This document shows positions 18,826-33,504 of a DNA stretch of 64,000 nt, piece by piece. Both the position numbers and the translations under genes were made by a program. Source of the stretch: a candidate division WWE3 bacterium. GTDB taxonomy: Bacteria > Patescibacteriota > WWE3 > 2-01-FULL-39-13. Location: NCBI GenBank assembly GCA_027002375.1, contig JALWZX010000011.1:18317-82316 (forward strand), in the 5' to 3' direction. A model generated the notes under the pieces. The model was not told where the DNA came from. It made no database searches and worked only from the letters and a program-made list of their open reading frames with translations. Positions within the stretch are counted from its first letter, which is position 1. The number at the start of each line of letters is the position of its first letter.

Positions 18826-21800
18826 TTGAGTATGAACCTGTCCAACATATTTGCAAAAATCAAGAAACGTCTTGCTATTGTCTCGTATTTGCAAAAGTGC
18901 TCTATTTATTTAACAGATATTGCCACCAAATTTTATGCACATTTGTCAAAGCGCTTTTACTGCTATGACAGTGCGAACGCACATATTGCGTTACTCTTAA
19001 GTATCCCTAAACTAATCGAAAAACATCTACAGCGTTCTTTTGCGGTTTTAATAACCCCAGCTAAAACCCTAATGATTTTGCTTCTAATATTATTTTTAGT
19101 GGTCGGTCCATTAACAACAAGCATGTCCTATGCTCAGAAAGAAAACGTGAGAAACAATCAGTCAGTCTACAAGTCTGATACCACTTCTCCTATCAAAAAT
19201 GTGTTACTAGCACTAAAAGACAGTGAAGGCGCCAATAAAGGTGATAAAACAAGTAAAGATATTCAAATTCCCACTACAAAACCACCTTTAGAGCCAGAAA
19301 ATTCAGATAACGTAATTCAAGCAAATAAGCCGATAAAACTTAAAATCAAAGATGAAACCATTAAAGCTAAAAAGTTGAGATACATTGTTGAGCGTGAAAA
19401 AACGCATGAAATGATCGAAGTCACTAGCATAATTGATGATATTAATAACCAGTTGGTATTAAAGCCAAAAAGGGCATTTAGACCGGGAAAATATAAGTTA
19501 CAAGTAGTAGAAAATATAGACGTAGACTCGACCAAAAACGAAAATGTACAAGCAAAGCAGAAAGACGCCAATAACGCACAAACAAAACCAAGCAATAACG
19601 ATCAGTCACCAACAGAACAACCCAATACTGATCGATCGACAACAGACCAAACTGACAACTCGTTAGATGAACAAGTCAACAGTACACAAACAACTGATTC
19701 CCCTTCTCAGCAACCTATATACGAACAAGAATTTTTATGGGGAGTCTTAGCATACAATAGCGACAAGGCACAATACCTATTGTATGAAACCGCTCAATTT
19801 CAAATCGGGGTCCTTGACGAACAAGGAAACATAATTTGCGATGCTGACATCGATTTAACAATCACAAACAAAGATGCAAATCATAAAACCATATTATCAA
19901 CGAAAACAGGCACTATAACTGAAAGCAACGAGTGTATTAAACATGATTTCACTCTAGAACCTGACTACAAGAGCGAATTACAACTCACCCATTCAGGAAA
20001 ATATACGGTAGAAATAACAGCAACAACAAAAAATGGAACATATAAAACAACCGATTCTTTTGAAGTAATAGAACCAGATGATGTTCCGTTTTTAATACAA
20101 AGAAATACGCCAACAAGAGTCTATCCAAAAAAAGATTATCCAGTTGAAATAACAATAATTCCAAATGAAGATTTTAATGGCGAAATTGTTGAAACAGTAC
20201 CAAGAGATTTTCTAATAAAAAGATCATATCTTGGAATTCCATATACAAATATTCAAAAAACGTCAGGAGATAAAAAAATAATATGGAAAATCAAGCTAGA
20301 AAAAGACGTGCCTGTGATTCTCTCTTATAAATACGATGCGCCGAATATATCACCACAATTTTATTTATTAGGTCCGATAGAGTTTGTGAGAACAACTGAA
20401 ACCACTACCCTATCTGATGAACCGAACCAAGATACTGATAATAATCGAAATCTATACAAAGATAATGAGTTAGATAACGCCAAAGATAAAAACAATAACA
20501 AGAACGCCGATAAAAACAACAGTACAAAGAAAAGCGATAATAACCAACAAACCAAGAATAAAAGTCAACAAAATCAAAATCCAAATCAACGAGACCAAAA
20601 TAAAATTAAAAATGTCGAGACTATAAGAAATATTGATATACCCTCGATAGACCTCGAACCAAACAACACCTACGCATCTAAAGTAACGACAAATAAAAAA
20701 GTAATATTTACAGAACAGAGAGAATGGCAGCTTGCCAATGACGCTATCGATGATTATGCAATATACACAGACACAAATGGAACACATGATACTGATAACT
20801 CATCGTACACAGGCGTACCCTTCAACAATCAAGTAGCACAGGGAGGTATCTTTACTCAAAATGCCAACGACATTGATGTAGGTTTAGGTTCTGATGGTCA
20901 CTATTTATTTGGATATGTAATACAGGCTAGAAACGATTCGTATGGCAATCGTATCTCTTATCTGTCTAGGGTCACATTAGACGAAACAGAAAATTTAACA
21001 GGACACGGCCAAGGGTATAGAAGAAACGCAACAAATGACAGATATTACACATACGGATATGGAATTGTAAATGCATCTTCTGGTGATAACATACGTGTAG
21101 AAGTTATTAGACAAGGTGATAATACAGCGTCACACACATTAGAAGCAAACCGATCCTCTTTTTGGTTAGTTAAATTAGACGACGATTGGGCATATTTAAA
21201 GTTACAAGGCCAAGACAATCAATCAACCTCGACTTCCCTGCAAGATATTAACTTTACCACATCGATAGAAAATACAGATACGGATACTTTTGGACACAGT
21301 ACGTCGACAAACTCAAATCAAATTACATTGAAATCATCAGGTCATTACTTGGTCACATACTCTGTAGGTGTTGACGGCGCTACAAGCAGAACTTCTGTAA
21401 CAACAAATTTAGCACTGAACGGTACAGCAATACCACAATCATATGATTACTCATACATACGATCGTTAAACTCTACAACACATGGTACTGCAACAAACAT
21501 GTCGATCATAAACGCATCTGCAAACGACGTTCTAACTTTAAAATGGGGCGCTACTGGTGCACACAGTTCATATGGAACTCAAACAAGATCAGACCGAACG
21601 TTTATTGCAGTTGTTAAATTGCCTGACGATGGCGATTATTTAATGGCACATGACACAAGTGGGACTCAAAACGTAGGCGGGTTAAACAATACGCTAACAT
21701 TCGACACATCAGACGAGGCAGATTCAACTTCTTTTTCATTTAGCACATCAACAGGTACAGCTACAATACAACAAGATGACACCTATTTATTTATGAGTGG

Positions 21801-24800
21801 TGCAAGAAGTAACAGAACAACAGGTACAGCCCGTCTAACAAGTGCGGGTTTATTTTACGTAAATGGGACACAACAAAGTGTTGGAAACACAGGTGTATAT
21901 GTCAGAGGTGATCAAGGTACACCAGACACATTTGATGGAGGCTGGACTGGTGCTGGCATTTTTGACCTGTCACAAAACGATCAAGTAACATTTAGACAAG
22001 TTGATGAAGGTGATAACGGTGGTGACGATAAGTTTGTAGCAAATGCACTCGGTTTAACCGCAATAAACCTAGATACAATCTTAATTCCAGTAACAAACGA
22101 TAGCCCTAATGCACCACAAACACCTTATGTAAATAATGATACAGCTCAGAGTGGGCAAGCTTCCCCTGTTTCTAACTTAACTGATATAACACCTGCGTTT
22201 TCTGCAATTTATGATGATAATGACGCATCTGATACCGCCCCTTTTTACCAAATTCAAGTAGGTGACGATACAGATTGGTCAGATGCACCAGAACTTTGGG
22301 ACAGTAACAAATCTTCTCTAACAACAGCCGTAAACGAAAATTCAAGATCTGAAGATATTATATATAATGGAACAGCTCTAACTGCAGGCTCAACATATTA
22401 CTGGCGAATAAAGTTTTGGGACAATAACGGTGCAGAAGGTGCGTGGTCAGCTACACAGCAATTTAGCATGGCAACAAATAACGATCCAAACGCACCACAA
22501 ACACCTTATGCAAATAACGATACTGCGCAATCCGGTCAGGTATCACCTGTTTATAATTTAACAGATACTACACCGGCCTTCTCTGCGATTTATGATGATG
22601 ATGATACTACAGACAAGGCTTCATATTATCAGTTACAAGTAGGTGACGATACAGATTGGTCAGATGCACCAGAGCTTTGGGACAGCACCAAGACGGCATT
22701 CACAACATCATTAGATGAAAATTCTAGGTCAGACGATATAATTTACGGTGGCTCTGCACTAACACTTGGCTCAACATATTACTGGCGAATAAAGTTTTGG
22801 GACAACAGAGGTGGTGAAGGCGCGTGGTCAGCTACACAACAATTTTCTCTAGCAAGTTCAGTCGGTAATGATGGCGACGTGGCAATTTATCAAGATACAA
22901 ATGGAACACATAATACCAATAATACATCATATACTGGCGTTCCGTTTAATAATGTTGTAACGCAAGACCCAACTTTTTCTCAAAACGCAAATGATATTGA
23001 CGTAAAACTTGTAAATGGTGGACACTATCTAGTTGGTTACAAAGTAGAAGCTCAAAACACATCTTACGGAAACAGAATTGGCTATCTGTCAAGATTATTG
23101 CTAAATAGTACAGAAGAATTATCGGCACATGGGCAGGGTTATAGAAGAGATGCAACGAACAACCGTTACTACGCTTACGGTTATGGTATTATAAGTGCAA
23201 ACGCGAGTAATAATATTAGGGTTGAAGTAATTAGAAACGGTACTAATTCTGCAGAACACGATCTCATTGCAAATAAATCTAGTTTCTGGTTAGCTAAACT
23301 AACAGATTCTTGGGCGTATTTAAGATTACAAGGTCAGGATAATCAAACGACATCGACTTCCCTACAAGATATAAACTTCACAACTTCTATAGAAAATAGT
23401 GATACGAATACATTCGGTCATAGTACATCAACTAACTCAAATCAAATTACTCTAAAACAAGCAGGCCATTATTTAGTTACGTACAATGTCGGTATAGACA
23501 GTACAACAGATAGAACATCTATTACGACAAACCTTGCTCTAAATGGGACTGCGATACCGCAATCATATGGTTACGCTTACGCTAGAGGTTTAAACGGTGC
23601 AACAGATGCAACAGCATCAAACATAACAATAATAAATGCATCCGTAAACGATATTTTAACATTAGAATGGGGCGCAACAGGCGCATATGCAACAAATGGA
23701 TCTCAAACAAGATCAGACAGAACTAGTATTCAAATTGTAAAGCTACCAGACACAGGTGATTATTTGCGAATTCACGAAAATACAGATGGTCAAGATATCG
23801 GTGGTCTAAATAACACAATAACATTTGATACATCAGATGAGGCAGATGCTAACTCTTTCACCTACTCTACCTCAACAAGCCAAACAACAATAAATAAAGG
23901 TGCTTTTTACATTTTTACATCAGGCGCACGGACACATAGAACAACTGGTGGCACAAGGTTAACCTCTAAAGGCGCATTTTTTATAGATGGCACTCAATCA
24001 GACTTAGCTAATACAGGTACTTATATTAGAGGTGTCCAATCACCAAATAATACACTAGATGGTGGTTGGTCAGCCGGCGGAATTCTATCGTTATCAAAAA
24101 ATAACGTTGTTGATTTTAGACAAATAGACGAAGGTGGCAACGGAGACGATGATAAGTTTGTCGCAAATTCATACGGAATAACAGCAGTAAACCTAAATTC
24201 TTTCTATACAATCTCAATATCAGGAACGTGCCAACAATACGATGAATCTACCAATTGTGCAAATGGTGAAACAGTAAAAGTAGCAGTAGACGGCCAACTA
24301 CAATCGCAAACCACAACAACATCATCGGGCACCTTCACAATTTCGGGTATTCCTAAACCAGCGAAAAATTCAGTAATAACCGTATTTCTCGACAATGTTA
24401 GTGATTCGAATGAGGCTGTAACAATAACTAAATACGCTGGCTCAGGTGATATATCAAATCTAAAACTATACGAAGAACATCTTACTTTAGGAAACGAGTC
24501 AAACACATCACCAATATCGAATTCTGATGTTGCCAAATACGACAACTCTGTCTCATCAGATGAAGATATATTTTTCGACGTAGACTCTAGTAATAACTTA
24601 ACGGTCGACTATACAGCACAATCAACACAAGAAAAATTATATGTACTAGCTAACAACACTTTCAGGCCAGATGACACAAATGCAACAACTGTTACTACAG
24701 AAAAAGTAAAAGTAGACGGGGGGCTAACGCTAGATCAAACAACATTCAAGATAACTGGATCTGGTACTGGTTCAAGTGTACCAATAACTTTTGGCTCAAA

Positions 24801-27051
24801 CGGGATTCTAACTGCGAATTCCCCATCAACAGTAGAATTTAGTGGCACATCAGCGACAGAAATTCCGGCATTAACCTATTACAACTTAAAACTAGCACCA
24901 TCAAGTGGCTCACCCACCCACACGCTTGGCACTGCCACATCGCAAACTATAGATATAAACGGCTCTCTAACGATAGGCGATTCTACAAATACAGTAACGG
25001 CAGATCTTGGCACATACTCACCCGCAATAAATATCAATAAAAGTTTAATAGTTAATTCTAACGCCACCATGTCAGGTTCATACTCAAACACTATTAAAAC
25101 CGCAGGTTCGGTAACCGGTGGTGGCGTGATTAACATCTCAGGCACAGGTTCGTTTGAAAATAACGCTTCTGCAAATGTTTCTTTTGGATCTTCAACGGGT
25201 TCTAATAACTGGTCGTTCAGCAATTTAGCTTTCACGAATTCTGTATTCACACCTGTAACAATAACGTTAAATTCGGGTGGTACAGGTACGATTCAGGTAA
25301 CCAATACTCTAACAATCGGCAATTCTGCAGATACAGAGACAACCATTTTAGATAACGAAACAAATGATCGTAACTTAGATTTAGTCGATTTAACAATTAC
25401 TGATAAGGGGGAATTTAAGGCATCTTCGACTTCCACACAAAAAATTGCACAAAACTTTACAAATAATGGTACGTTTACGCCAAACAATTCAACCATAGAG
25501 TTTGATGATTCAACTAAGACTTCCAAATTATTATATTCTAGTAACACAACATTCTATAATCTAACCGTAAATACAGATAATAAACAAATACAATTCGACG
25601 AAACTGAACAAACAAATATAACAGGAACATTAACATTGCAAGGTTCAGCCTGCGGAACTAGCAGAGTACTAGTAGATTCTACAACAGACAACGACCAATT
25701 TGATATAAACGCAACAGGATCAACAACAACAGAATATGTTGATATAGAAGATTCAAATGCAGTAACAGCGCTAACAGCACGAAACGCAACTGAAGATAAT
25801 GGCGGTAACACTAACTGGACAATAATCGCAGGATCTTGTGGTTCAAACACCCCACCAAATGACCCGACATCTTTAACACAGGCTAAAACAGACGATACAG
25901 TTTTAAACACAGGTGACTATACAAACGAAACTTCAATAAAATTTTCTGCATCGGCAAGTGATACTGACAACCCTGATGGCTTAAAATTGTGTGTAGAAAT
26001 ACAACCAGTTGGCACAGCGTTTACAGGCACATCTACACAATGTTCAGACGAACAAACATATACTGGTTCAGCTCTCACATTAACTACAACGATATCTGGT
26101 TTAGATGCAGACGAATCTTATCATTGGCAAGCAAAAATCACAGATACAGCAAATTCTGATTCTAACTGGGTTTCATATGGGGGAAATCTAGAGACGGCTC
26201 GCGATGTAGGCATAGACACAACAGCACCAACCGTTGCAACTATATACGATGGCGATGTTAACGGTGTTGATAAAGAGATTAGCTCGAGCTCCCTATCAGA
26301 ATTATCTGCAAATTGGGATAACTTTGATGCAACAGTATCCGGCATCAAAGAATATGAATATTCAATTGGTCTAACTCAGGGTGGCACAGAAATTCTAGGT
26401 TGGACATCAAATGGAACAAGCACATCAGTAACGGCAACGGGTTTAACATTGCAAACTTCAAAAGTATATTATTTCAATGTAAGAGCAACTGATAATGCAA
26501 GTAATATCTCTAATGTTGCATCATCAGATGGGCAGATTGTAGCACCAAGTTTGCAGTTTTCTGTAACACCACCGACAGTAGAATTCTCTAACTTAAATGC
26601 ATTGAATGGATATTCAGCAGAACAAACTGCAACATTAACTACATCAACTAATGCTTACAATGGGTACGAGATTCGGGCATTTTTGGCTAACTTGCTGACA
26701 TCCAGCGACGGCGTAAACACAATCCAAAACTTTGACGGTGGCACCTACTCTGCCCCTGCTTCATGGGATTCTTCAGATAGAGGTTTCGGATACACATCTA
26801 GCGACACTTCAATACAAGGTGTAGATAAATTTAATTCGTCAACATGTGCAGGGGGCGGAGCCGCTCCTTGTTATGCACCATTTGCAACATCATCACCTGG
26901 CGACATAGTCGCAGATCACGAATCCACAGTAAGCGGCTCCGCGATATCAAATGAGCAATTCAACGTAACTTACAAAGTACAAACTGACTCAACGCAACCT
27001 GCATCTAAATATTCGACAACAGTTATATACGCAATTACAGCTAAATATTAA
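18826..27051 (+). CDS. giant (2741 aa) secreted adhesin-like protein with rhamnosidase-N-type FN3 tandem domains, duplicated ~440-aa lectin-like module, FN3 domains and C-terminal WxL-like (YxL) anchoring domain
   Basis: Signal/TM segment (LMILLLILFLVVGPLTTSMSYAQ). The true start may be the internal Met at 19072. Two FN3-like units with the GH78-N signature (...STYYWRIKFWDN.G.EGAWS). Large internal duplication. C-terminal FN3s (YHWQAKITD, YYFNVRATD). Final ~170 aa are homologous to the C-terminus of ORF 28362-29477. Confidence 0.75.
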   Translation: MSMNLSNIFAKIKKRLAIVSYLQKCSIYLTDIATKFYAHLSKRFYCYDSANAHIALLLSIPKLIEKHLQRSFAVLITPAKTLMILLLILFLVVGPLTTSMSYAQKENVRNNQSVYKSDTTSPIKNVLLALKDSEGANKGDKTSKDIQIPTTKPPLEPENSDNVIQANKPIKLKIKDETIKAKKLRYIVEREKTHEMIEVTSIIDDINNQLVLKPKRAFRPGKYKLQVVENIDVDSTKNENVQAKQKDANNAQTKPSNNDQSPTEQPNTDRSTTDQTDNSLDEQVNSTQTTDSPSQQPIYEQEFLWGVLAYNSDKAQYLLYETAQFQIGVLDEQGNIICDADIDLTITNKDANHKTILSTKTGTITESNECIKHDFTLEPDYKSELQLTHSGKYTVEITATTKNGTYKTTDSFEVIEPDDVPFLIQRNTPTRVYPKKDYPVEITIIPNEDFNGEIVETVPRDFLIKRSYLGIPYTNIQKTSGDKKIIWKIKLEKDVPVILSYKYDAPNISPQFYLLGPIEFVRTTETTTLSDEPNQDTDNNRNLYKDNELDNAKDKNNNKNADKNNSTKKSDNNQQTKNKSQQNQNPNQRDQNKIKNVETIRNIDIPSIDLEPNNTYASKVTTNKKVIFTEQREWQLANDAIDDYAIYTDTNGTHDTDNSSYTGVPFNNQVAQGGIFTQNANDIDVGLGSDGHYLFGYVIQARNDSYGNRISYLSRVTLDETENLTGHGQGYRRNATNDRYYTYGYGIVNASSGDNIRVEVIRQGDNTASHTLEANRSSFWLVKLDDDWAYLKLQGQDNQSTSTSLQDINFTTSIENTDTDTFGHSTSTNSNQITLKSSGHYLVTYSVGVDGATSRTSVTTNLALNGTAIPQSYDYSYIRSLNSTTHGTATNMSIINASANDVLTLKWGATGAHSSYGTQTRSDRTFIAVVKLPDDGDYLMAHDTSGTQNVGGLNNTLTFDTSDEADSTSFSFSTSTGTATIQQDDTYLFMSGARSNRTTGTARLTSAGLFYVNGTQQSVGNTGVYVRGDQGTPDTFDGGWTGAGIFDLSQNDQVTFRQVDEGDNGGDDKFVANALGLTAINLDTILIPVTNDSPNAPQTPYVNNDTAQSGQASPVSNLTDITPAFSAIYDDNDASDTAPFYQIQVGDDTDWSDAPELWDSNKSSLTTAVNENSRSEDIIYNGTALTAGSTYYWRIKFWDNNGAEGAWSATQQFSMATNNDPNAPQTPYANNDTAQSGQVSPVYNLTDTTPAFSAIYDDDDTTDKASYYQLQVGDDTDWSDAPELWDSTKTAFTTSLDENSRSDDIIYGGSALTLGSTYYWRIKFWDNRGGEGAWSATQQFSLASSVGNDGDVAIYQDTNGTHNTNNTSYTGVPFNNVVTQDPTFSQNANDIDVKLVNGGHYLVGYKVEAQNTSYGNRIGYLSRLLLNSTEELSAHGQGYRRDATNNRYYAYGYGIISANASNNIRVEVIRNGTNSAEHDLIANKSSFWLAKLTDSWAYLRLQGQDNQTTSTSLQDINFTTSIENSDTNTFGHSTSTNSNQITLKQAGHYLVTYNVGIDSTTDRTSITTNLALNGTAIPQSYGYAYARGLNGATDATASNITIINASVNDILTLEWGATGAYATNGSQTRSDRTSIQIVKLPDTGDYLRIHENTDGQDIGGLNNTITFDTSDEADANSFTYSTSTSQTTINKGAFYIFTSGARTHRTTGGTRLTSKGAFFIDGTQSDLANTGTYIRGVQSPNNTLDGGWSAGGILSLSKNNVVDFRQIDEGGNGDDDKFVANSYGITAVNLNSFYTISISGTCQQYDESTNCANGETVKVAVDGQLQSQTTTTSSGTFTISGIPKPAKNSVITVFLDNVSDSNEAVTITKYAGSGDISNLKLYEEHLTLGNESNTSPISNSDVAKYDNSVSSDEDIFFDVDSSNNLTVDYTAQSTQEKLYVLANNTFRPDDTNATTVTTEKVKVDGGLTLDQTTFKITGSGTGSSVPITFGSNGILTANSPSTVEFSGTSATEIPALTYYNLKLAPSSGSPTHTLGTATSQTIDINGSLTIGDSTNTVTADLGTYSPAININKSLIVNSNATMSGSYSNTIKTAGSVTGGGVINISGTGSFENNASANVSFGSSTGSNNWSFSNLAFTNSVFTPVTITLNSGGTGTIQVTNTLTIGNSADTETTILDNETNDRNLDLVDLTITDKGEFKASSTSTQKIAQNFTNNGTFTPNNSTIEFDDSTKTSKLLYSSNTTFYNLTVNTDNKQIQFDETEQTNITGTLTLQGSACGTSRVLVDSTTDNDQFDINATGSTTTEYVDIEDSNAVTALTARNATEDNGGNTNWTIIAGSCGSNTPPNDPTSLTQAKTDDTVLNTGDYTNETSIKFSASASDTDNPDGLKLCVEIQPVGTAFTGTSTQCSDEQTYTGSALTLTTTISGLDADESYHWQAKITDTANSDSNWVSYGGNLETARDVGIDTTAPTVATIYDGDVNGVDKEISSSSLSELSANWDNFDATVSGIKEYEYSIGLTQGGTEILGWTSNGTSTSVTATGLTLQTSKVYYFNVRATDNASNISNVASSDGQIVAPSLQFSVTPPTVEFSNLNALNGYSAEQTATLTTSTNAYNGYEIRAFLANLLTSSDGVNTIQNFDGGTYSAPASWDSSDRGFGYTSSDTSIQGVDKFNSSTCAGGGAAPCYAPFATSSPGDIVADHESTVSGSAISNEQFNVTYKVQTDSTQPASKYSTTVIYAITAKY
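20750..22080 (+). repeat. intragenic duplication unit A1 (~443 aa lectin-like triple module) of giant adhesin gene
   Basis: Protein segment IYTDTNGTHDTDNSSYTGVPFNN...KFVANALGLTAINLD is ~70% identical to A2. Confidence 0.8.
22095..22478 (+). repeat. intragenic tandem repeat b1 (128-aa rhamnosidase-N-type FN3 unit)
   Basis: NDSPNAPQTPYVNNDTAQSGQ...STYYWRIKFWDNNGAEGAWSATQQFSMA. ~85% identical to b2 at the DNA level. Confidence 0.8.
22479..22862 (+). repeat. intragenic tandem repeat b2 (128-aa FN3 unit)
   Basis: NDPNAPQTPYANNDTAQSGQ...STYYWRIKFWDNRGGEGAWSATQQFSLA. Confidence 0.8.
22875..24205 (+). repeat. intragenic duplication unit A2
   Basis: IYQDTNGTHNTNNTSYTGVPFNN...KFVANSYGITAVNLN. Collinear with A1. 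Confidence 0.8.
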
Positions 27052-27164
27052 TTATGTGGAATTCAAGCAAAACCTTAAAACAAAAGAAAAATCTAGAAGC
27101 ACAACCACACAAGCGTCGAAAAGTTACCGAGTCTACCAAGTTCAAAAGCGAAACACCACGGACT

Positions 27165-27257
27165 AAAGCCCGTAGTTTCTTATCGCCAATTACCATATTA
27201 ACTAACCCTATCCACACACTAAAGTGTATGAATTTAAGTTTGGTGACAATAAGGCTA
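27165..27257 (+). repeat. MITE-like interspersed repeat, copy 1 (hairpin + TTATCGCCAAT ... AAGTTTGGTGACAATAA)
   Basis: Shares the ~90-bp consensus ...TTTCTTATCGCTAATTATTATATTGACTAACTCCATCCACACATTAAAGTGCGTATTTTTAAGTTTGGCGATAATAAA with 5 other loci. Confidence 0.6.
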
Positions 27258-28352
27258 GCACTAATATTGGCTGTTCTTACTTTACTAATTTTATTGTTTC
27301 CGTTAAAAACACAGGCAAAAGATTTGATAATTAAGAATCAACTAGAAAGCGAAAATGCATACATACAAGATAATACACAAAATACACAACAACCTGTGTT
27401 TAGAAAGCCAACAATTGATTCCCACAATGATTTCACAGACAAAACCCTTTCTAACCCACAAGTTAAAGGAAAAGCAGTTTTATCAACAATAGCGATTGGC
27501 GTATCGCCTGCCATAGCTGAACTTCCCGTAGACCCTGTGAAAACTAAAGTTGCGAAAGTATATGTTTTTAACAATACCAATGTGCCACTACCAATACATG
27601 CTTTTTCTGATAATTTTTCTGTAAACGAAATTGTAATAGACAGTACAAAAGACAATTCAAACACTTTCGATGCTTCAAATTGGATAACAATAGACCCACC
27701 TGACTTTATACTTCAACCAAACGAAGAAAAAGAGGTCTATATCTCAATTTCGCCTACACCAAATGCAGAACCAGGTGGGCATTATGCCACCGTTTACTTT
27801 AGACCCTTAATCTCAGAAGAATATATAACCCCAGATAAAACCTACTTAACTGCACAAATTGGTGTATTATTGTTCTTAACTGTTTCAGGAAAAATCAAAG
27901 AATCTGCAAATATTTCTAACTTAACTTTACCTAAATACCCTACGCCAGATAACTTTTTACCAACAGTTTACATACAAAACAACGGAAACATACATATAAT
28001 TCCCAAAGGTAAAATAACAATCAAGGGCTTGTTTAGAAAAACAACACATGAATTCCCAATAGAAAATTCAATAGTTCTACCAAATACAGAAAAAAAGGTG
28101 GTTTCGCATACCAAGGCTTCATTAAAGACGGGACTATATCGAACATATTTTACAGGCAATTATGGTAGCAACAACAAGCCACTGGCCAGTAGCGACAAGA
28201 TATTCTTCGTATTCCCAAACCACAAGACACTTATTACTATATTTATTCTAATAATAGTTACACTTTTAGTTCAAAAGTTTCATAGAAACATACCATTGGC
28301 TATAAAAGTCTTGTTTGGTAAAATTGATGAATACAAAAGTGGCAGGAACTAA
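27228..28352 (+). CDS. CscA/DUF916-like cell-surface protein (signal peptide + C-terminal TM anchor), paralog 1
   Basis: Signal peptide MNLSLVTIRLALILAVLTLLILLFPLKTQA. Conserved core with paralog 29827-30915 (PTPNAEPGGHYATVYF vs PPTNAEPGGHFGSIVF). C-terminal TM LITIFILIIVTLLV plus basic tail. The ORF-track start at 27054 is extended through a repeat element and is probably artefactual. Confidence 0.55.
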   Translation: MNLSLVTIRLALILAVLTLLILLFPLKTQAKDLIIKNQLESENAYIQDNTQNTQQPVFRKPTIDSHNDFTDKTLSNPQVKGKAVLSTIAIGVSPAIAELPVDPVKTKVAKVYVFNNTNVPLPIHAFSDNFSVNEIVIDSTKDNSNTFDASNWITIDPPDFILQPNEEKEVYISISPTPNAEPGGHYATVYFRPLISEEYITPDKTYLTAQIGVLLFLTVSGKIKESANISNLTLPKYPTPDNFLPTVYIQNNGNIHIIPKGKITIKGLFRKTTHEFPIENSIVLPNTEKKVVSHTKASLKTGLYRTYFTGNYGSNNKPLASSDKIFFVFPNHKTLITIFILIIVTLLVQKFHRNIPLAIKVLFGKIDEYKSGRN

Positions 28353-28361
28353 TTTTGGTTA

Positions 28362-29477
28362 TTGCCACTTTTGTGTTTTTTAGTAATCAAAAAGGAGGTG
28401 ACTAGTACACAAATGAAAAACAAAAAATTATTTAAAGTTTTTTCTATGTTATCAGTTACTGCGCTCACGCTTTCACAGGTGGCACTTTCCCTGTCTATGC
28501 CAACTGCTCAAGCAGCATCACTGTCTGACGGCTCTGTTTCGCTTAGCGATTCACGACCCAGTCAAACCAATGTTACCTATACATCTTCATTTCAAAATGT
28601 TTCGGCAACATCAATTCAATGTATAGAATTAAACTTTAACACTGTAGCAAGTGGCACAGGTTCAGTACCAACAGGAATGTCTACTACTAGTGCGACATTA
28701 AATAGTTCATCAACATACATAACTCCAGCCAACTGGACTGTTGATGCAACAACCAATGGTACTGTTAAACTAACCTACGCAACTGGCGAAAGTGGAACAG
28801 ACGGTAATATCATATTAGATGGAATCACAAATGGTTCAACGGTAGACACAGGGTATTTCTTGCGATTTACAACATATAGTGATTCTAGCTGTACTACAGC
28901 TGTAGACAACGCAACTATAATGTTCATCTATACTAACGGGCAACTCGTTTCGTTAACGGTAGACCCAACATTGAGCTTTAGCGTTGCTTCAGTAGCCTCA
29001 GGTCAAACAGTCAACGGTGCAACAACAAATGTTGCTACATCAACAACAACAATACCTTTTGGAACAGTAACAACAAGTACAGATGTAGTCGCCGCACACG
29101 ATTTAACCGTCACAACAAATGCAACCAATGGTTATACCTTATATACAAGATATACGGGACAATTAACCAATGGATCAGGTGCAACAATTGATGATGTATC
29201 AGGTACAAACGCAACACCAGCATCTTTTGATACGGGCGAAGCCTTTGGTTATACTACAAACGATGCAACATTAAGTAGTGCACCAGTAGACAGATTTACA
29301 TCTAGCGGTGGTAATAAATGGGCTTCTTTCACAACATCAAATGCAGAAGTCGCATACGCCGATTCAGCAGTAGATACAGACACAACAAGAGTTGGTTACC
29401 AAGTAGGCATAGCCGGAACAACAGAAGCTGGAACCTACACAACAACTGTTGTATATACTGCAACACCTACCTATTAA
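28362..29477 (+). CDS. secreted protein with C-terminal WxL-like (YxL variant) domain
   Basis: Signal peptide ending AQA. C-terminal ~170 aa (LSFSV...IPFGTV...HDLTVTTNATNGYTLY...GTYTTTVVYTATPTY) are collinear with the C-terminus of the 2741-aa protein. The layout matches the WxL domain with Trp replaced by Tyr. Confidence 0.55.
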   Translation: MPLLCFLVIKKEVTSTQMKNKKLFKVFSMLSVTALTLSQVALSLSMPTAQAASLSDGSVSLSDSRPSQTNVTYTSSFQNVSATSIQCIELNFNTVASGTGSVPTGMSTTSATLNSSSTYITPANWTVDATTNGTVKLTYATGESGTDGNIILDGITNGSTVDTGYFLRFTTYSDSSCTTAVDNATIMFIYTNGQLVSLTVDPTLSFSVASVASGQTVNGATTNVATSTTTIPFGTVTTSTDVVAAHDLTVTTNATNGYTLYTRYTGQLTNGSGATIDDVSGTNATPASFDTGEAFGYTTNDATLSSAPVDRFTSSGGNKWASFTTSNAEVAYADSAVDTDTTRVGYQVGIAGTTEAGTYTTTVVYTATPTY

Positions 29478-29826: not shown

Positions 29827-30915
29827 ATGGCATACAAAACAGTTCCTACCCCAAAGATTAAAACATTTAGTAAGTTAACATTAACTTTAGTACTTTCTAT
29901 TACTATACTTTTGGCGTTAAGTTCCCATTCATTAGCACAAGAAGACACCAACACTCAAGAGCACAAACCAACGCCAGAGCTTATAAACGAAAAGCCATCT
30001 ACCAAAAATGACACAAACACTAACCAAAATAACAATCAAAAAACAGATACTCCTACGGAAGATACGGTCACAGACTCTACCACCATAGCCGTATCGCCAC
30101 CAACATTCGAGTTGGTAACAAACCCAGGCACACAAATCAAAAACACAATAAAAGTTAGTAACCCATCAGACAAGCCTATACATGTAACAACAGACATCAG
30201 AAACTTTGTGGCAGTCGGTGAAGAAGGCGCGGTAAACTTGACAGATGAAGACACAACTTATTCCCTAGCAAAATGGATAACAATAGCACCAACAAATGCA
30301 ACAATAAAACCAAAATCAACAGAAATTTTCACGTTCATAATCAACCCCCCTACGAATGCAGAACCAGGTGGCCATTTTGGCTCAATAGTATTTAGAACTG
30401 GGGGAAATCAAATCAATGAAACTGGTGCCTCAGTTGCACAAGAAGTTGCATCATTAATATTACTAAAGATAGCAGGACCTACTACAGAAAAAGCAACTCT
30501 AGAAGAATTCAAAACAACAGACTCAGTATACCAATCGATACCAATAACCTTTGAATATAAGGTAAGAAACGAAGGTAACGTTCACATTAAACCAACAGGA
30601 AAAATAACCATAACTAACATATTTGGCAAAGAAGTTGATTCATTTGCAGTTCCACCAAAAAATGTATTACCAAGTGCAACTAGAAAAACAGACGTAAATT
30701 ACGATAAAAAAGATTTGTTTGGTAAATACAATGCTACACTGGTATTAACCTATGGTGCAAACAATGAAACATTAGTTTCAAACACAATCTTTACAGTAAT
30801 TCCTGTTAAAAAGGTTGCTGTAGCACTTATAATAACTGCAATAGTCTTGTTCTTACTACTAAAAGGCCGTAAAAGAATATCGATGTCTCTAAAAGTACTA
30901 TTTGGAAAACAATAG
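29827..30915 (+). CDS. CscA/DUF916-like cell-surface protein (signal peptide + C-terminal TM anchor), paralog 2
   Basis: Signal peptide ...SSHSLAQ. Core shared with 27228-28352. C-terminal TM VAVALIITAIVLFLLL plus KGRKR. Confidence 0.55.
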   Translation: MAYKTVPTPKIKTFSKLTLTLVLSITILLALSSHSLAQEDTNTQEHKPTPELINEKPSTKNDTNTNQNNNQKTDTPTEDTVTDSTTIAVSPPTFELVTNPGTQIKNTIKVSNPSDKPIHVTTDIRNFVAVGEEGAVNLTDEDTTYSLAKWITIAPTNATIKPKSTEIFTFIINPPTNAEPGGHFGSIVFRTGGNQINETGASVAQEVASLILLKIAGPTTEKATLEEFKTTDSVYQSIPITFEYKVRNEGNVHIKPTGKITITNIFGKEVDSFAVPPKNVLPSATRKTDVNYDKKDLFGKYNATLVLTYGANNETLVSNTIFTVIPVKKVAVALIITAIVLFLLLKGRKRISMSLKVLFGKQ

Positions 30916-32239
30916 TGAAATGACCCATAAAGAACTCTATGAAATTCGCCGGGTTAAGGCCTGTGGCTTCTCATCGCTAATTATTATGTTGACCAACTCT
31001 ATCCAAGCACTAAAGTACGTGGTTTTAAGTTTGTCGATAATAAACACATTTTTATTATCTGTATTATTCACTACATCATTTTTGCTAACTTTATTTAGCA
31101 CTTTAATCACGATTTCTCCCACATCTATACACGCCCAAACACCAATAACAGTTTCATTAGACATATCAGACACAATATTAAGAATTCAAGGCTATGCGAG
31201 TCCGTATGCAAACATAACATTTATAGAAAATGAAGCAGTTATAGGCACTACTCAGGCAAATGTTTATGGGGAATTCAACAAAAATATTACATACGAAAGT
31301 GAAGGTATACACACTGTTTCATTTTATTCTACAGATCAAAACTCAAGCACATCGAGTACAATTACAATAACAGTTGCTGTATACACGCATGCCGTTACAA
31401 CCATTGAAGACATATTAATTCCACCAACGATAGATATAGATAACCCTATTCATACAACTAATTCAGAAGAAATTATCACTTTTAGTGGTCAAGCGACACC
31501 AAATACAACAATAACATTAATATCTGGGGGGCTATCGAAACAAACACAAACTCTAGTAACAGGCAACTGGAAAATTACATTTACAGGTGATCAGTTCACA
31601 ATCGGAACTCACACAGCAATTACCAAAACACAAAAGTTAAATGGCACATTAAGCGAAAATTCAAAAACTATTACTTTCAAGATTAACGAATACATCCCAC
31701 CTGAACCTGAACCAACACCTATACCTACCCCAGAAGAAACTACAGAAACATCAAAAAGCAAAAGTGATGAGACTAAGGGAAATGACGACGAAGACAAAAA
31801 AGAAGACAATACTGAGAACAAAGATACAAATATAGTTAGCAAAATCATAACTAAGATAAATGAAATAATTAACGGTAATGGCAATTCTGAGATTGAATAT
31901 TCATGCAATCTACACCCTTACTTAAAAAACTTTGACTATAATGGAAATTGTTTCATACCACATCGAACAGAAGAATTCGTAAACACTGTAACATACTGGA
32001 CTAAAAACTGGCGTGAAACAACAACCGCCATAAAGGGCTTCTTCGCAAACATTAATGCAGGTGAAAATTTAGACAACCTATCACCAAACGAAAAGCAAAA
32101 ATTAGAAAAAGAGATTAAACGATGTGACCTTGACAACGACAATTTATGCACACTTAAAGACTTTTCGATACTATTATATTATACTAATAACATCGAAGTT
32201 ACAGTTCAAACTGACAAAAGTCAGGATATAAGAAATTAG
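30902..32239 (+). CDS. surface protein with Ig-like N-terminal region, P/T/E/D-rich linker and C-terminal Cys-containing domain
   Basis: Hydrophobic leader. The start may be the internal Met near 30986; the 5' end lies inside a repeat element. Ig-like TIDIDNPIHTTNSEEIITFSGQATPNTTITLISGG. Linker PEPEPTPIPTPEETTE. Four-Cys C-terminal domain. Confidence 0.5.
   Translation: MENNSEMTHKELYEIRRVKACGFSSLIIMLTNSIQALKYVVLSLSIINTFLLSVLFTTSFLLTLFSTLITISPTSIHAQTPITVSLDISDTILRIQGYASPYANITFIENEAVIGTTQANVYGEFNKNITYESEGIHTVSFYSTDQNSSTSSTITITVAVYTHAVTTIEDILIPPTIDIDNPIHTTNSEEIITFSGQATPNTTITLISGGLSKQTQTLVTGNWKITFTGDQFTIGTHTAITKTQKLNGTLSENSKTITFKINEYIPPEPEPTPIPTPEETTETSKSKSDETKGNDDEDKKEDNTENKDTNIVSKIITKINEIINGNGNSEIEYSCNLHPYLKNFDYNGNCFIPHRTEEFVNTVTYWTKNWRETTTAIKGFFANINAGENLDNLSPNEKQKLEKEIKRCDLDNDNLCTLKDFSILLYYTNNIEVTVQTDKSQDIRN
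30947..31047 (+). repeat. MITE-like interspersed repeat, copy 2
   Basis: GGCTTCTCATCGCTAATTATTATGTTGACCAACTCTATCCAAGCACTAAAGTACGTGGTTTTAAGTTTGTCGATAATAAA. Confidence 0.6.
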
Positions 32240-32364: not shown

Positions 32365-33504
32365 ATGAAAATACATGGTTTATCTTTAGCATTAAAAATA
32401 GCAATAATACTGATCGGCTCATGGCTCTTAATACATGGTTTAGCTTCTTTGGGAACCTTTTTAGCGCTAGCCTACCCAATCTGGTGGATACTAGCTCCAA
32501 AAAAAACGTATTGCATAGCATGTCGTGCGCAAAAAGAATCTGGCTACTGTAGCTTTTGCGAAGAACCAATAAAACCACGCCAACTATATCCAAAGAACTT
32601 AAGATCTGCCATATTGAATGCAATAACGATACTATTTCTTTCTTTATTTTCTATATTTGTCGTTTATATAGAATCACAAATAATTCAAAAAGTAATAAAT
32701 ATTAACACAGAAAAAACTGTAACATTCTCAATTAATGACAAAGGCCAATATAAAATGGGTGAGATATTTTCTATGGATATAGAGATAAGCGGTGTTCAAA
32801 AACCAGTAAACGCAATACGTGCAGACGTACAATTTGATCCAAAAAGACTAGAAGTAGTAAACATATCAACAGAAAATTCGTTCGCAGATATATTCATACA
32901 AAAAGAATATGACAATGAAAAAGGGTTCGCACGGTTAACTGGTGGTCTACCTAACCCAGGCTACAATGGCAACAAAGGTCTATTCGGTACTATCTACTTT
33001 AAATCTAAAAAAGCGGGTTTAACAGAGGTAAAATTTTTACCGACATCATTAGTCCTAGCAAACGATGGTCATGGTACAAACATATTAAAAGCACCGGAAT
33101 CAGCATTGTTTTTAATACTGCCCGAAACGATTTCCGCATACGAATCAAAGAAACAAGAAGTTATATTAAAACCATTAGTATTGGGAACTCAAACCGATAA
33201 GACAAAAGATCAACTACATCTTTACGATACTAAAACACACGATATCTCATCATCAGTCTTGGGAATGCAAGTAGAGCAACTAGACGAAAACGCTAAAAAC
33301 ACAGATCAAACCTCAGGCACACAAAATCAACAGGCAAATCAAAGTGAAAAGAATACCTATAAAAAAACTACGCGAACAAAGACAAAACAATTAGCACAGG
33401 TCACGCAAGACAATCAAACAGAAGAACAAAATATATTACAAAAAATACTAACCTACCTACATAAAATCGATATTTTTATATTAAGTATCTGGCAAATATT
33501 TTAG
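32365..33504 (+). CDS. membrane protein with zinc-ribbon (CxxC...CxxC) loop and cohesin-like domain
   Basis: Two N-terminal TMs flank CIACRAQ...CSFCEE. Cohesin-like beta-sandwich motif (VNAIRADVQFDPKRLEVVNIST...GLFGTIYFKSKKAGLTEVKF). Q/T/N-rich tail. Confidence 0.5.
   Translation: MKIHGLSLALKIAIILIGSWLLIHGLASLGTFLALAYPIWWILAPKKTYCIACRAQKESGYCSFCEEPIKPRQLYPKNLRSAILNAITILFLSLFSIFVVYIESQIIQKVININTEKTVTFSINDKGQYKMGEIFSMDIEISGVQKPVNAIRADVQFDPKRLEVVNISTENSFADIFIQKEYDNEKGFARLTGGLPNPGYNGNKGLFGTIYFKSKKAGLTEVKFLPTSLVLANDGHGTNILKAPESALFLILPETISAYESKKQEVILKPLVLGTQTDKTKDQLHLYDTKTHDISSSVLGMQVEQLDENAKNTDQTSGTQNQQANQSEKNTYKKTTRTKTKQLAQVTQDNQTEEQNILQKILTYLHKIDIFILSIWQIF

What the first reader, a model, noticed from the sequence alone, without database searches (positions are those of the whole stretch)
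26560..27051. Shared C-terminal 'YxL' domain: WxL-like layout with both tryptophans replaced by tyrosine
Both C-termini are collinear across the same four blocks.
- Block 1: ...LQFSVTPPTVEFSN... in the giant protein versus ...LSFSV...TIPFGTV... in the 371-aa protein.
- Block 2: TLTTSTNAYNGYEIRAF versus LTVTTNATNGYTLYTRY.
- Block 3: a central G(F)GYT(S/T)(S/N)D.
- Block 4: a final strand YSTTVIYAITAKY versus YTTTVVYTATPTY.
The positions where canonical WxL domains carry [LI]xWxL carry YxL/YxI here. A Trp-less WxL variant would be a new subfamily and could explain why such loci are not annotated in this lineage.
Basis: inference. Interest (0 to 1): 0.6.

Follow-up and report, generated by a model that had tools for sequence, protein, structure and literature searches.

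The report
Pilin domain shared by pilus subunit and giant adhesin
The shared C-terminal domain is real, but it is the subunit-joining domain of a recently described pilus of ultrasmall (CPR) bacteria rather than a tryptophan-less WxL cell-wall anchor; its two helper genes, however, are clear relatives of the helper protein of WxL gene clusters.

Summary
The last 169 residues of the 2741-aa protein (window 26542-27048) and the C-terminal half of the neighbouring pilin are homologous: BLASTP E 2e-6, and profile-profile 99.8% (E 3e-28) between the two subfamilies.

The WxL reading of the domain is not supported. There is no Pfam WxL hit in the 71 relatives scanned or in the giant's C-terminus. 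hhalign against 149 genuine WxL domains gives under 1% probability. The second "Tyr" position is not conserved.

The domain matches NCBIfam NF058581, the Pam pilus pilin C-terminal domain:
- The match is below the curated cut-off but covers the full profile length.
- 54 of 68 relatives match, the best at 49 bits.

Its AlphaFold model (pLDDT 96.9) resembles donor-strand fibre subunits such as CfaB, the PapG pilin domain, Csu and TasA-like proteins.

The gene order is giant protein, helper, pilin, helper, Ig protein, with a cohesin protein last in four of the six. It is conserved in six CPR genomes.

The two membrane-anchored helpers are homologous to WxLIP (DUF916/DUF3324) proteins at 99.65% probability, E 3.8e-25.

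Best reading: a divergent Pam-type pilus operon whose giant adhesin carries the pilin domain.

The parts
18826..27051 (+). Giant secreted protein (2741-aa ORF; true start uncertain, with a signal-like hydrophobic stretch around aa 85-105). It has about 2570 aa of beta-rich adhesin-like modules followed by the pilin-type C-terminal domain.
   Evidence: ORF and translation. Pfam: Ig_Rha78A_N x2 and BclA_C-like. A 443-aa module is duplicated at 67% identity. Giant proteins of 1700-3000 aa sit at the same position in five other CPR loci; the same C-terminal domain was confirmed in L001 and L002.
26545..26565 (+). Conserved linker strand P-S-L-Q-F-S-V immediately before the giant's C-terminal domain. 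It is the candidate donor strand.
   Evidence: Column counts: P 99, [ST] 99, L/I 101, F 103 of 111. It is a beta-strand (residues 4-9) in the AF2 model, in a block with pLDDT 96.
26542..27048 (+). The finding itself: the 169-aa C-terminal pilin-type (Pam CTD-like, incomplete-Ig) domain of the giant protein.
   Evidence: NF058581: 21.9 bits, E 1.4e-4, profile positions 7-148 of 148. AF2 pLDDT 96.9, pTM 0.90. Foldseek PDB top hits are donor-strand fibre subunits. hhalign 99.8% to the pilin-type domain.
27054..28352 (+). Helper A: 432 aa, signal or TM at the N-terminus, two Ig-like domains, a C-terminal TM helix and a basic tail. It resembles WxLIP and PamC/PamD.
   Evidence: 32% identical to helper B, E 4e-34. 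Included in the hhalign comparison with DUF916 proteins, 99.65%. The C-terminal hydrophobic helix can be read directly in the translation.
28413..29477 (+). Pilin (354 aa from the likely ATG; the ORF opens at 28362). Layout: signal peptide, beta-sandwich N-terminal domain (aa 39-172), linker strand (aa 185-193, nt 28965-28991), C-terminal domain (aa 183-354, nt 28959-29474).
   Evidence: AF2 pLDDT 91.6 with this secondary-structure layout. NF058581: 31.2 bits, E 1.9e-7, profile positions 2-148 of 148. 737 homologues found, those with names being Patescibacteria or WWE3.
29827..30915 (+). Helper B: 362 aa with the same architecture as helper A.
   Evidence: Pfam WxLIP_PGBD 27.6 bits against a gathering score of 27.3. 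tblastn hits annotated DUF916 genes in Embleya (E 6e-6), Clavibacter, Deinococcus, Streptomyces and Rossellomorea. hhalign 99.65%.
30902..32239 (+). Gene 5: secreted protein with tandem Ig-like domains (one Big_6 Pfam hit in the window copy) and a Cys-flanked dockerin/EF-hand-like C-terminal loop. It is a possible base adaptor.
   Evidence: Big_6 28.4 bits. The motif CDLDNDNLCTLKDFSILLYY is shared with orthologues that score on Dockerin_1 and EF-hand.
32365..33504 (+). Gene 6: membrane protein with a cohesin domain. It is a possible membrane dock for gene 5.
   Evidence: Cohesin 34.3 bits against a gathering score of 24.1. The gene is present only in loci where gene 5 lacks its own TM anchor.

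Best explanation
Window 26542-27048 encodes a pilin-type C-terminal domain. It is a divergent relative of the C-terminal domain of the Pam pilins of CPR bacteria (bioRxiv 10.64898/2026.03.03.709456). In that system the domain is an incomplete Ig-like barrel, completed by a beta-strand donated by the next subunit.

Proposed assembly:
1. All six gene products are exported by Sec.
2. The two membrane-anchored two-Ig helpers hold newly exported subunits by inserting a strand into the open domain.
3. The conserved linker strand P-[ST]-L-x-F-x-V of an incoming subunit displaces the helper (donor-strand exchange), building a fibre of the 354-aa pilin.
4. The giant protein carries the same acceptor domain at its very C-terminus. 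It would therefore be joined to the fibre, most simply at the distal end as with FimH or PapG, and present about 2500 aa of adhesin-like modules to a host cell.
5. Gene 5 and gene 6 (a dockerin-like and cohesin pair) may tether the base to the membrane.

Shown here: the domain homology, the fold class, the conserved gene order, and the homology of the helpers to WxLIP.
Inferred by analogy: strand exchange, the order of subunits, the tip position of the giant protein, and the anchoring role of genes 5 and 6.
For: - NCBIfam NF058581 (Pam pilin C) matches the pilin at E 1.9e-7 and the giant's domain at E 1.4e-4, over essentially the whole 148-position profile. It matches 54 of 68 relatives. Intermediates P0165 and P0166 reach 46-49 bits against the 55-bit cut-off, and their N-termini also match PamT.
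- The AF2 model of the pilin shows the Pam layout of N-terminal sandwich, single linker strand and C-terminal domain (compared with the description read).
- The model of the C-terminal domain alone (pLDDT 96.9) finds TLP-1a, CfaB, CS17, TasA, the PapG pilin domain bound to PapD, CooA, CsuA/B, CsuE, SafA, Caf1, FimG, PapE and EcpA. Probability is 1.00 for the top six and TM about 0.5.
- The gene order giant, helper, pilin, helper, Ig protein is kept in six CPR loci, and the domain was confirmed on both the giant and the pilin in the loci where the HMM was run (window, L001, L002/L003).
- The helpers have a signal peptide, two Ig domains and a C-terminal TM helix, as described for PamC and PamD.
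- The linker and the last strand are the most conserved segments, as reported for Pam pilins.
Against: - The scores to NF058581 are below NCBI's curated cut-off (31.2 and 21.9 against 55 bits).
- No NCBIfam Pam helper model or PapD family matches the helpers convincingly. PapD_N matches 1 of 14 at E 0.07.
- The PamA and PamB sequences and structures were not in the PDB copies searched, so no direct superposition was possible.
- The giant protein keeps the linker motif. A pure tip subunit would not need it, so its position in the fibre is open.
- ATP synthase genes, said to accompany pam operons, are absent from the ORFs I annotated in this 64-kb window.
- No filament has been seen for this lineage.
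Confidence: 0.75

Rival explanations
1. The domain is a tryptophan-less WxL domain that holds secreted proteins non-covalently on peptidoglycan, with the DUF916-type neighbour stabilising it on the wall.
For: - The neighbours are true WxLIP homologues.
- The domain is strictly C-terminal, and the cluster has a small and a large carrier of it, like WxL clusters.
- There are short motif-level resemblances. The N-terminal L-x-[LF]-x-x-x-P...F-[GS] strand pair, the G-[WY]-x-[LVI] turn, and the last strand Y-x-x-T-[LV]-x-[WY]-x-[LIA] ending 12 residues after the Tyr occur in the same order in both families (consensus strings; sequences).
- Genuine WxL proteins can lack Trp.
Against: - No Pfam WxL hit in 71 members or in the giant's C-terminus.
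- hhalign gives 1% or less in every mode and subset, while the positive controls give 99.8-100%.
- hmmsearch is negative in both directions.
- The second aromatic position is not conserved.
- The closest named family is a pilin whose polymer has been solved by cryo-EM.
Confidence: 0.1
2. The domain is a docking tag rather than a polymerising unit. The membrane-anchored two-Ig proteins complement it permanently by donating a strand, so the giant protein and the 354-aa protein are each displayed singly on the cell membrane. This is the role proposed for WxLIP in Firmicutes.
For: - The helpers have TM anchors, and there are two paralogues for two clients.
- WxLIP is proposed to bind and stabilise WxL, with a DUF916 hairpin predicted to insert into it.
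- A WxL-WxLIP complex has been crystallised as a stable entity, PDB 9i25.
Against: - The linker strand with alternating hydrophobic residues is conserved in both carriers, which a tag would not need.
- The related PamA and PamB form long filaments by strand exchange.
- The pilin family is very abundant and uniform in size, as expected of a major subunit.
Confidence: 0.13
3. The resemblance is a compositional artefact of Thr/Ser-rich beta-strand sequence and not a shared domain.
For: Both regions are rich in T, S and N, and the pairwise identity is only 35%.
Against: - BLASTP used composition-adjusted statistics and still gave E 2e-6.
- hhalign E 3e-28 over 151 columns.
- Invariant, non-compositional columns exist (G-Y, G-Y-T-x-x-D, Y157).
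- The AF2 model is confident.
Confidence: 0.01

Closest known systems
Pam pili of Candidatus Mycosynbacter amalyticus (PamA, PamB, PamT pilins; PamC, PamD helpers), bioRxiv 10.64898/2026.03.03.709456; NCBIfam NF058581 and NF058579
   Same: - CPR lineage.
- Two-domain pilin with a beta-sandwich N-terminal domain, one linker strand and an incomplete-Ig C-terminal domain.
- Full-length, though sub-threshold, match to the Pam pilin C model.
- Two membrane-anchored two-Ig helpers in the operon, and no usher.
   Different: - Scores are below the curated cut-off, so this is a distant branch. Its named relatives are WWE3 and unclassified Patescibacteria (one giant-type relative is labelled Saccharimonadales), not the Saccharimonadia of the founding example.
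- A 2741-aa adhesin-like protein is fused to the pilin domain, whereas PamT is a single domain.
- There is one major pilin instead of PamA plus PamB.
- No PamR-like FnIII-TM gene is present. Instead there is an Ig protein with a dockerin-like end plus a cohesin membrane protein.
- No ATP synthase genes were found in the ORFs annotated.
WxL clusters of Firmicutes (small WxL, large WxL, WxLIP = DUF916 + DUF3324 + TM; PMC9772566, PMC10599100; PDB 9i1y and 9i25)
   Same: - The helper protein is homologous (hhalign 99.65%).
- The cluster logic is the same: a small carrier, a large carrier with N-terminal adhesin modules, and the shared domain always at the C-terminus.
- A strand of the helper is predicted to insert into the client domain.
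   Different: - The client domain shows no detectable sequence relationship to WxL.
- There is no LPxTG partner gene.
- There are two helpers instead of one.
- WxL proteins are described as peptidoglycan binders, not as fibre subunits.
Chaperone-usher pili of Gram-negative bacteria (Fim, Pap, CFA/I, Csu, Saf, Caf1), especially two-domain tip adhesins FimH and PapG
   Same: - Fold class of the domain: Foldseek hits CfaB, the PapG pilin domain, CsuA/B, FimG and PapE.
- A C-terminal strand with alternating hydrophobic residues and a terminal aromatic residue.
- An adhesin part followed by a pilin domain at the C-terminus.
   Different: - No usher and no outer membrane.
- The helpers are membrane-anchored.
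- The candidate donor strand is an internal linker, not an N-terminal extension.
- TM scores are only about 0.5, and no Fimbrial or PapD Pfam membership was found.
TasA and TasA-like (TLP) donor-strand fibres
   Same: TLP-1a (9ikj) is the best Foldseek hit and the TasA fibre (8aur) is also listed. Both are monoderm or archaeal fibres built by strand complementation.
   Different: TasA-type fibres assemble without dedicated helpers (my own knowledge). TM scores are 0.35-0.48, and there is no sequence match.

Membership tests
Pam pilin C-terminal domain (NCBIfam NF058581) | HMM score at or above the curated cut-off (55 bits) | tested here: not met
   Pilin 31.2 bits (E 1.9e-7). Giant's domain 21.9 bits (E 1.4e-4). 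Both cover about the whole profile. 54 of 68 relatives match at E <= 0.01, the best at 48.9 bits. This is a distant relative, not a member by NCBI's rule.
Pam pilin C-terminal domain (NCBIfam NF058581) | Pilin built as a beta-sandwich N-terminal domain, a single linker strand and an incomplete Ig-like C-terminal domain | tested here: met
   AF2 model of the 354-aa protein: strands 39-172, strand 187-193, long loop, strands 225-352; pLDDT 91.6. This matches the description read.
Pam pilin C-terminal domain (NCBIfam NF058581) | The C-terminal domain fold resembles chaperone-usher pilins | tested here: met
   Foldseek against the PDB with the domain-only model: CfaB, CS17, the PapG pilin domain, Csu, Saf, Caf1, FimG and PapE, with TM up to 0.54.
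Pam pilin C-terminal domain (NCBIfam NF058581) | Operon encodes membrane-anchored two-Ig helpers (PamC, PamD) | tested here: met
   There are two paralogues with a signal peptide and a C-terminal TM helix, conserved in six loci.
Pam pilin C-terminal domain (NCBIfam NF058581) | Subunits polymerise by donor-strand exchange into filaments | not testable with these tools
   This needs multimer prediction or microscopy. Only the conserved linker motif speaks for it.
WxL domain (Pfam PF13731) | Pfam HMM at or above the gathering score (25 bits) | tested here: not met
   There is no hit even at E <= 10 in 71 members, nor for the giant's C-terminus. The control WxL protein from Rossellomorea scores 34.5 bits.
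WxL domain (Pfam PF13731) | Two conserved W-x-L motifs on adjacent strands | tested here: not met
   The first position is G-Y-x-[VIL], with Y in 107 of 111. The second is Y 64, L 22, F 14, I 8 followed by A/I/V. Some genuine WxL proteins also lack Trp, so this feature alone is weak.
WxL domain (Pfam PF13731) | Profile-profile similarity to WxL domains | tested here: not met
   hhalign gives 0.1-1.0% probability against 149 WxL domains, and against small and large WxL taken separately. Controls give 99.8% and 100%.
WxL domain (Pfam PF13731) | Cluster with a WxLIP (DUF916-DUF3324-TM) gene and with small and large carriers of the domain | tested here: met
   for the helper. for the two carriers.
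WxL domain (Pfam PF13731) | Same three-dimensional fold as WxL | not tested
WxL domain (Pfam PF13731) | Non-covalent binding to peptidoglycan | not testable with these tools
   This needs a binding assay.
Classical chaperone-usher pilins | Outer-membrane usher gene in the operon | tested here: not met
   None of the six operon genes or the annotated flanking ORFs matches an usher family.
Classical chaperone-usher pilins | Pfam Fimbrial / PapD family membership | tested here: not met
   There are no Fimbrial hits. PapD_N matches 1 of 14 helpers at E 0.07.

The most novel reading that the evidence does not exclude
Pam pili of CPR bacteria and the WxL clusters of Firmicutes would be branches of one old, usher-less, membrane-anchored-helper system of monoderm bacteria. 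Their WxL-like counterparts next to DUF916 genes in Actinobacteria, and possibly the unclassified neighbours in Deinococcus, would belong to it too.

On this reading the WxL domain is the Firmicute counterpart of the pilin C-terminal domain, diverged beyond sequence detection. WxL proteins would then be held, and perhaps polymerised, by strand complementation rather than simply sticking to peptidoglycan. This would also overturn the statement that the Pam machinery is exclusive to CPR.

The helper homology is already shown here. The client-domain homology is not.
Probability: 0.3. Interest if true: 0.8.

Novelty: new variant of a known kind. Interest (0 to 1): 0.5.

Why it matters
For this lineage, the result turns a block of six unannotated genes into a testable pilus operon. 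It also points to a 2741-aa protein as the likely host-contact adhesin of an episymbiotic bacterium.

More broadly, the helper proteins link two literatures that do not cite each other in the papers I could search:
- the "novel, CPR-exclusive" Pam pilus;
- the WxL/WxLIP surface clusters implicated in virulence of enterococci and Listeria.

If the client domains also prove related, the mechanism solved by cryo-EM for Pam (strand exchange) becomes the working model for WxL proteins. Their mode of attachment has been unclear since 2006-2007.

Tried and rejected
- **Sequence search of the PDB.** The pilin and its profile found nothing. PamA and PamB are evidently not in that copy.
- **Foldseek with the two-domain pilin model.** It gave only generic tandem-Ig hits with TM about 0.2. 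I therefore modelled the domain alone.
- **Collecting WxL sequences.**
  - The search for homologous proteins with the Rossellomorea WxL protein returned only itself.
  - I recovered 150 WxL relatives with the exhaustive representative search instead.
- **Genome scans.**
  - The search for related loci with the alignment failed for lack of a conserved stretch.
  - With the single protein it found only two loci.
- **Building an actinobacterial WxL-like profile.** tblastn with the Embleya WxL-like domain found only itself.
- **Partners of DUF916 in Deinococcus, Clavibacter, Streptomyces and Embleya.**
  - None matches the CPR domain profile (0.5% or less).
  - The three actinobacterial ones match WxL weakly to moderately (37-87%).
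- **Gene 5 as a PamR-style donor strand.** I considered that its mature N-terminus (for example ETVSFSVSV in L001) might play this role. I rejected it as unproven, because the Big_6 match starts at that strand, so it is probably just the first strand of the Ig domain.
- **Taxon of the window.** It could not be named. The identical protein is on unnamed contigs.

Full report
**Observation**

The window carries six co-directional genes on the + strand between 18826 and 33504. The first encodes a 2741-aa protein and the third a 371-aa ORF. The third most likely starts at 28413, giving 354 aa with a typical signal peptide.

The two C-termini are related:
- BLASTP gives 35% identity over 130 residues, E 2e-6.
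- Database searches returned 737 relatives of the pilin and 48 of the giant's C-terminus. All named ones are from Patescibacteria, WWE3 or Saccharimonadales.
- Profiles of the two subfamilies align over 151 columns at hhalign probability 99.8%, E 3e-28.

Two details need correcting. The first aromatic motif is G-Y-x-[VIL], mostly V. The second "Tyr" is only a hydrophobic position (Y 64, L 22, F 14, I 8 of 111). The invariant Tyr lies six residues upstream, and the chain ends in Y or F in 110 of 111 sequences.

**What the domain is**

Pfam has no family for it. NCBIfam NF058581, "CPR_Pam_pilin_C, Pam pilus system pilin subunit", matches as follows:
- the pilin at E 1.9e-7, 31.2 bits, profile positions 2-148 of 148;
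- the giant's domain at E 1.4e-4, 21.9 bits;
- 54 of 68 relatives, with intermediates P0165 and P0166 reaching 46-49 bits against the 55-bit cut-off. Their N-termini also match the PamT model.

The source of that family is a 2026 preprint (10.64898/2026.03.03.709456). It reports cryo-EM structures of filaments of Ca. Mycosynbacter amalyticus built from PamA and PamB. Each subunit has a beta-sandwich N-terminal domain, a single linker strand and a truncated Ig-like C-terminal domain. The C-terminal domain accepts the linker strand of the neighbouring subunit. The helpers PamC and PamD are PapD-like proteins with a C-terminal transmembrane helix.

The AlphaFold model of the 354-aa protein (pLDDT 91.6) has exactly that layout: strands 39-172, one strand 187-193 (LSFSVAS), a long loop, then strands 225-352.

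The model of the giant's last 169 residues is very confident (pLDDT 96.9, pTM 0.90). Its best PDB matches by Foldseek are almost all subunits of fibres built by strand complementation: TLP-1a, CfaB, CS17, TasA, the PapG pilin domain bound to PapD, CooA, CsuA/B, CsuE, SafA, Caf1, FimG, PapE and EcpA. Probability is 1.00 for the top six and TM up to 0.54.

**Surroundings**

The genes after the giant protein are:
- helper A (27054-28352);
- the pilin;
- helper B (29827-30915);
- a tandem Ig-like (Big_6) protein (30902-32239);
- a cohesin-domain membrane protein (32365-33504).

The helpers are 32% identical paralogues. Each has a signal peptide and a C-terminal hydrophobic helix followed by a basic tail.

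The same order, giant (1700-3000 aa), helper, pilin, helper, Ig protein, recurs in five further CPR contigs. The domain HMM hits both the giant's C-terminus and the pilin in the window and in L001, L002 and L003, the loci held when it was run. The N-terminal parts of the giants differ between genomes (Laminin_G_3, DUF2341, DUF7483, or none). This is what one expects of an exchangeable adhesin fused to a constant joining domain.

**Test of the WxL idea**

I obtained genuine WxL proteins in three steps.
1. tblastn of helper B against plasmids hit annotated DUF916 genes in Embleya (E 6e-6), Clavibacter, Deinococcus, Streptomyces and Rossellomorea.
2. The Rossellomorea gene sits next to a Pfam-positive WxL protein (34.5 bits).
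3. From that protein I collected WxL clusters on Bacillus, Listeria, Pontibacillus and Virgibacillus plasmids and 150 representatives from the exhaustive search.

Results:
- hhalign of the CPR domain (111 sequences) against WxL (149 sequences) gave 0.1-1.0% probability in local, greedy and global modes. The same held for giant-type or pilin-type against small or large WxL separately. No alignment was collinear.
- The positive controls gave 99.8% and 100%.
- hmmsearch found nothing in either direction.

Loss of Trp is also not novel within WxL. The Listeria pLIS40 protein annotated as WxL, which hits the WxL profile strongly, reads GRGYDV and TVTVAVVQGP, and the B. anthracis one reads KLTYSIVTGP.

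**What survives of the WxL idea**

The helpers are WxLIP homologues:
- Helper B passes the Pfam gathering score for WxLIP_PGBD (27.6 against 27.3).
- 9 of 14 CPR helpers match it.
- A profile of 14 CPR helpers aligns with 8 DUF916 proteins over 258 columns, including both Ig domains and the membrane anchor, at 99.65% probability, E 3.8e-25.

Hassan and Williamson describe WxLIP as two perpendicular Ig-like domains plus a TM helix, with a hairpin strand predicted to insert into WxL next to its N-terminal strand. The Pam preprint describes PamC and PamD as two-barrel PapD-like proteins with a TM helix whose strands insert into the pilin domain. It never mentions WxL or DUF916. No paper in the library combines WxL with donor-strand or pilus concepts.

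The cluster logic is also the same: a small carrier, a large carrier with the domain at its C-terminus, and a membrane-anchored helper.

Short resemblances occur in the same order in both families:
- the N-terminal strand pair L-x-[LF]-x-x-x-P...F-[GS];
- the G-[WY]-x-[LVI] turn;
- the last strand Y-x-x-T-[LV]-x-[WY]-x-[LIA], ending 12 residues after the Tyr.

They carry no statistical weight. Partners of DUF916 genes in Actinobacteria are weak WxL relatives (hhalign 37-87%) that end in Trp-less versions of that strand. The Deinococcus neighbours end in similar Trp-less strands by eye but match neither profile.

A crystal or cryo-EM entry containing both a WxL protein and EfmWxLIP1 exists (PDB 9i25).

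**Mechanism**

I commit to the Pam-type reading at 0.75. The domain is the acceptor half of a strand-exchange joint. The conserved linker P-[ST]-L-x-F-x-V is the donor. The two anchored helpers cap the domain after Sec export. The 354-aa protein is the major subunit. The giant protein is attached through its C-terminal domain and presents adhesin modules, most simply at the fibre tip as FimH and PapG do (the comparison with FimH and PapG is from my own knowledge).

Open points:
- The giant protein keeps the linker motif, so it may not be strictly terminal.
- No PamR-like anchor is present.

An unplanned observation may fill the second gap. In the four loci where gene 5 ends in a dockerin/EF-hand-like loop, it is followed by a cohesin membrane protein. 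In the two loci where gene 5 has its own TM helix, there is no cohesin gene.

**Rivals**

- A true WxL-like wall anchor: 0.10.
- A permanent docking tag held by the anchored helper, without polymerisation: 0.13.
- A compositional artefact: 0.01, already excluded.

**Verdict**

The feature is a divergent variant of the recently described Pam pilus, with a giant adhesin fused to the pilin domain. Its helpers tie the Pam system to WxLIP proteins outside CPR.

Noticed in passing
window 30902-32239 and 32365-33504; L001 12101-14628; L013 12106-14067; L014 12120-14238; contrast L002 12039-12944 and L015 12114-13481: Gene 5 ends either in a dockerin/EF-hand-like loop (CDLNxDxxCxLxDFSILLYY) and is followed by a cohesin-domain membrane protein, or it ends in its own TM helix and no cohesin gene follows. 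This complementary pattern suggests that a cohesin-dockerin pair anchors the pilus base. The window's own gene 5 does not score on Dockerin_1; the motif is shared by homology.
   Followed up: partly
PDB 9i25 (chains A and C) and 9i1y: A solved entry holds a 'WxL domain surface protein' together with EfmWxLIP1, so the WxL-WxLIP interface is known experimentally. I found no paper on it in the library. It would settle whether WxL is completed by a donated strand.
   Followed up: partly
P0170-P0319 (WxL representatives): Small and large WxL domains in this set are plainly homologous over 184 columns (hhalign 100%, E 3e-63). PMC9772566 states that their structures are completely different.
   Followed up: partly
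L005 7101-7727 (Clavibacter), L012 6777-8807 (Streptomyces), L010 6273-8636 (Embleya), L011 7941-8819 and 9825-10397 (Deinococcus): Genes next to DUF916 genes outside Firmicutes end in Trp-less versions of the last WxL strand (YSATLTVTAI, YAGTLTLTLL, ATLTYTLTS). The three actinobacterial proteins are weak WxL relatives by profile; the Deinococcus ones match neither profile. Most are annotated hypothetical or not annotated.
   Followed up: partly
window 20752-22080 versus 22876-24204 (giant protein aa 643-1085 versus 1351-1793): A 443-aa module is duplicated within the giant protein at 67% identity without gaps. The N-terminal part of each copy has BclA_C-like (C1q/TNF-type) hits, and two Ig_Rha78A_N domains lie between the copies.
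   Followed up: partly
window 4405-11211 (-) and 42090-44144 (-): A second giant secreted protein (2268 aa; CBM96, CBM60) and a 684-aa CBM96 protein are present. Neither carries the pilin-type domain.
   Followed up: partly
window 52886-55048 (-): A VirD4/TraG-like type IV coupling protein (T4SS-DNA_transf, TrwB_AAD_bind) is encoded. This may relate to the conjugation-like type IV secretion system reported for Patescibacteria.
   Followed up: no
L016 1359-8798: This is a differently organised relative of the operon: a pilin whose N-terminus matches PamT and whose C-terminus scores 46 bits on Pam_pilin_C, then a WxLIP_PGBD-type helper, two more secreted proteins, and a 916-aa CarboxypepD_reg protein. 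It bridges this window's family to the characterised Pam family.
   Followed up: partly
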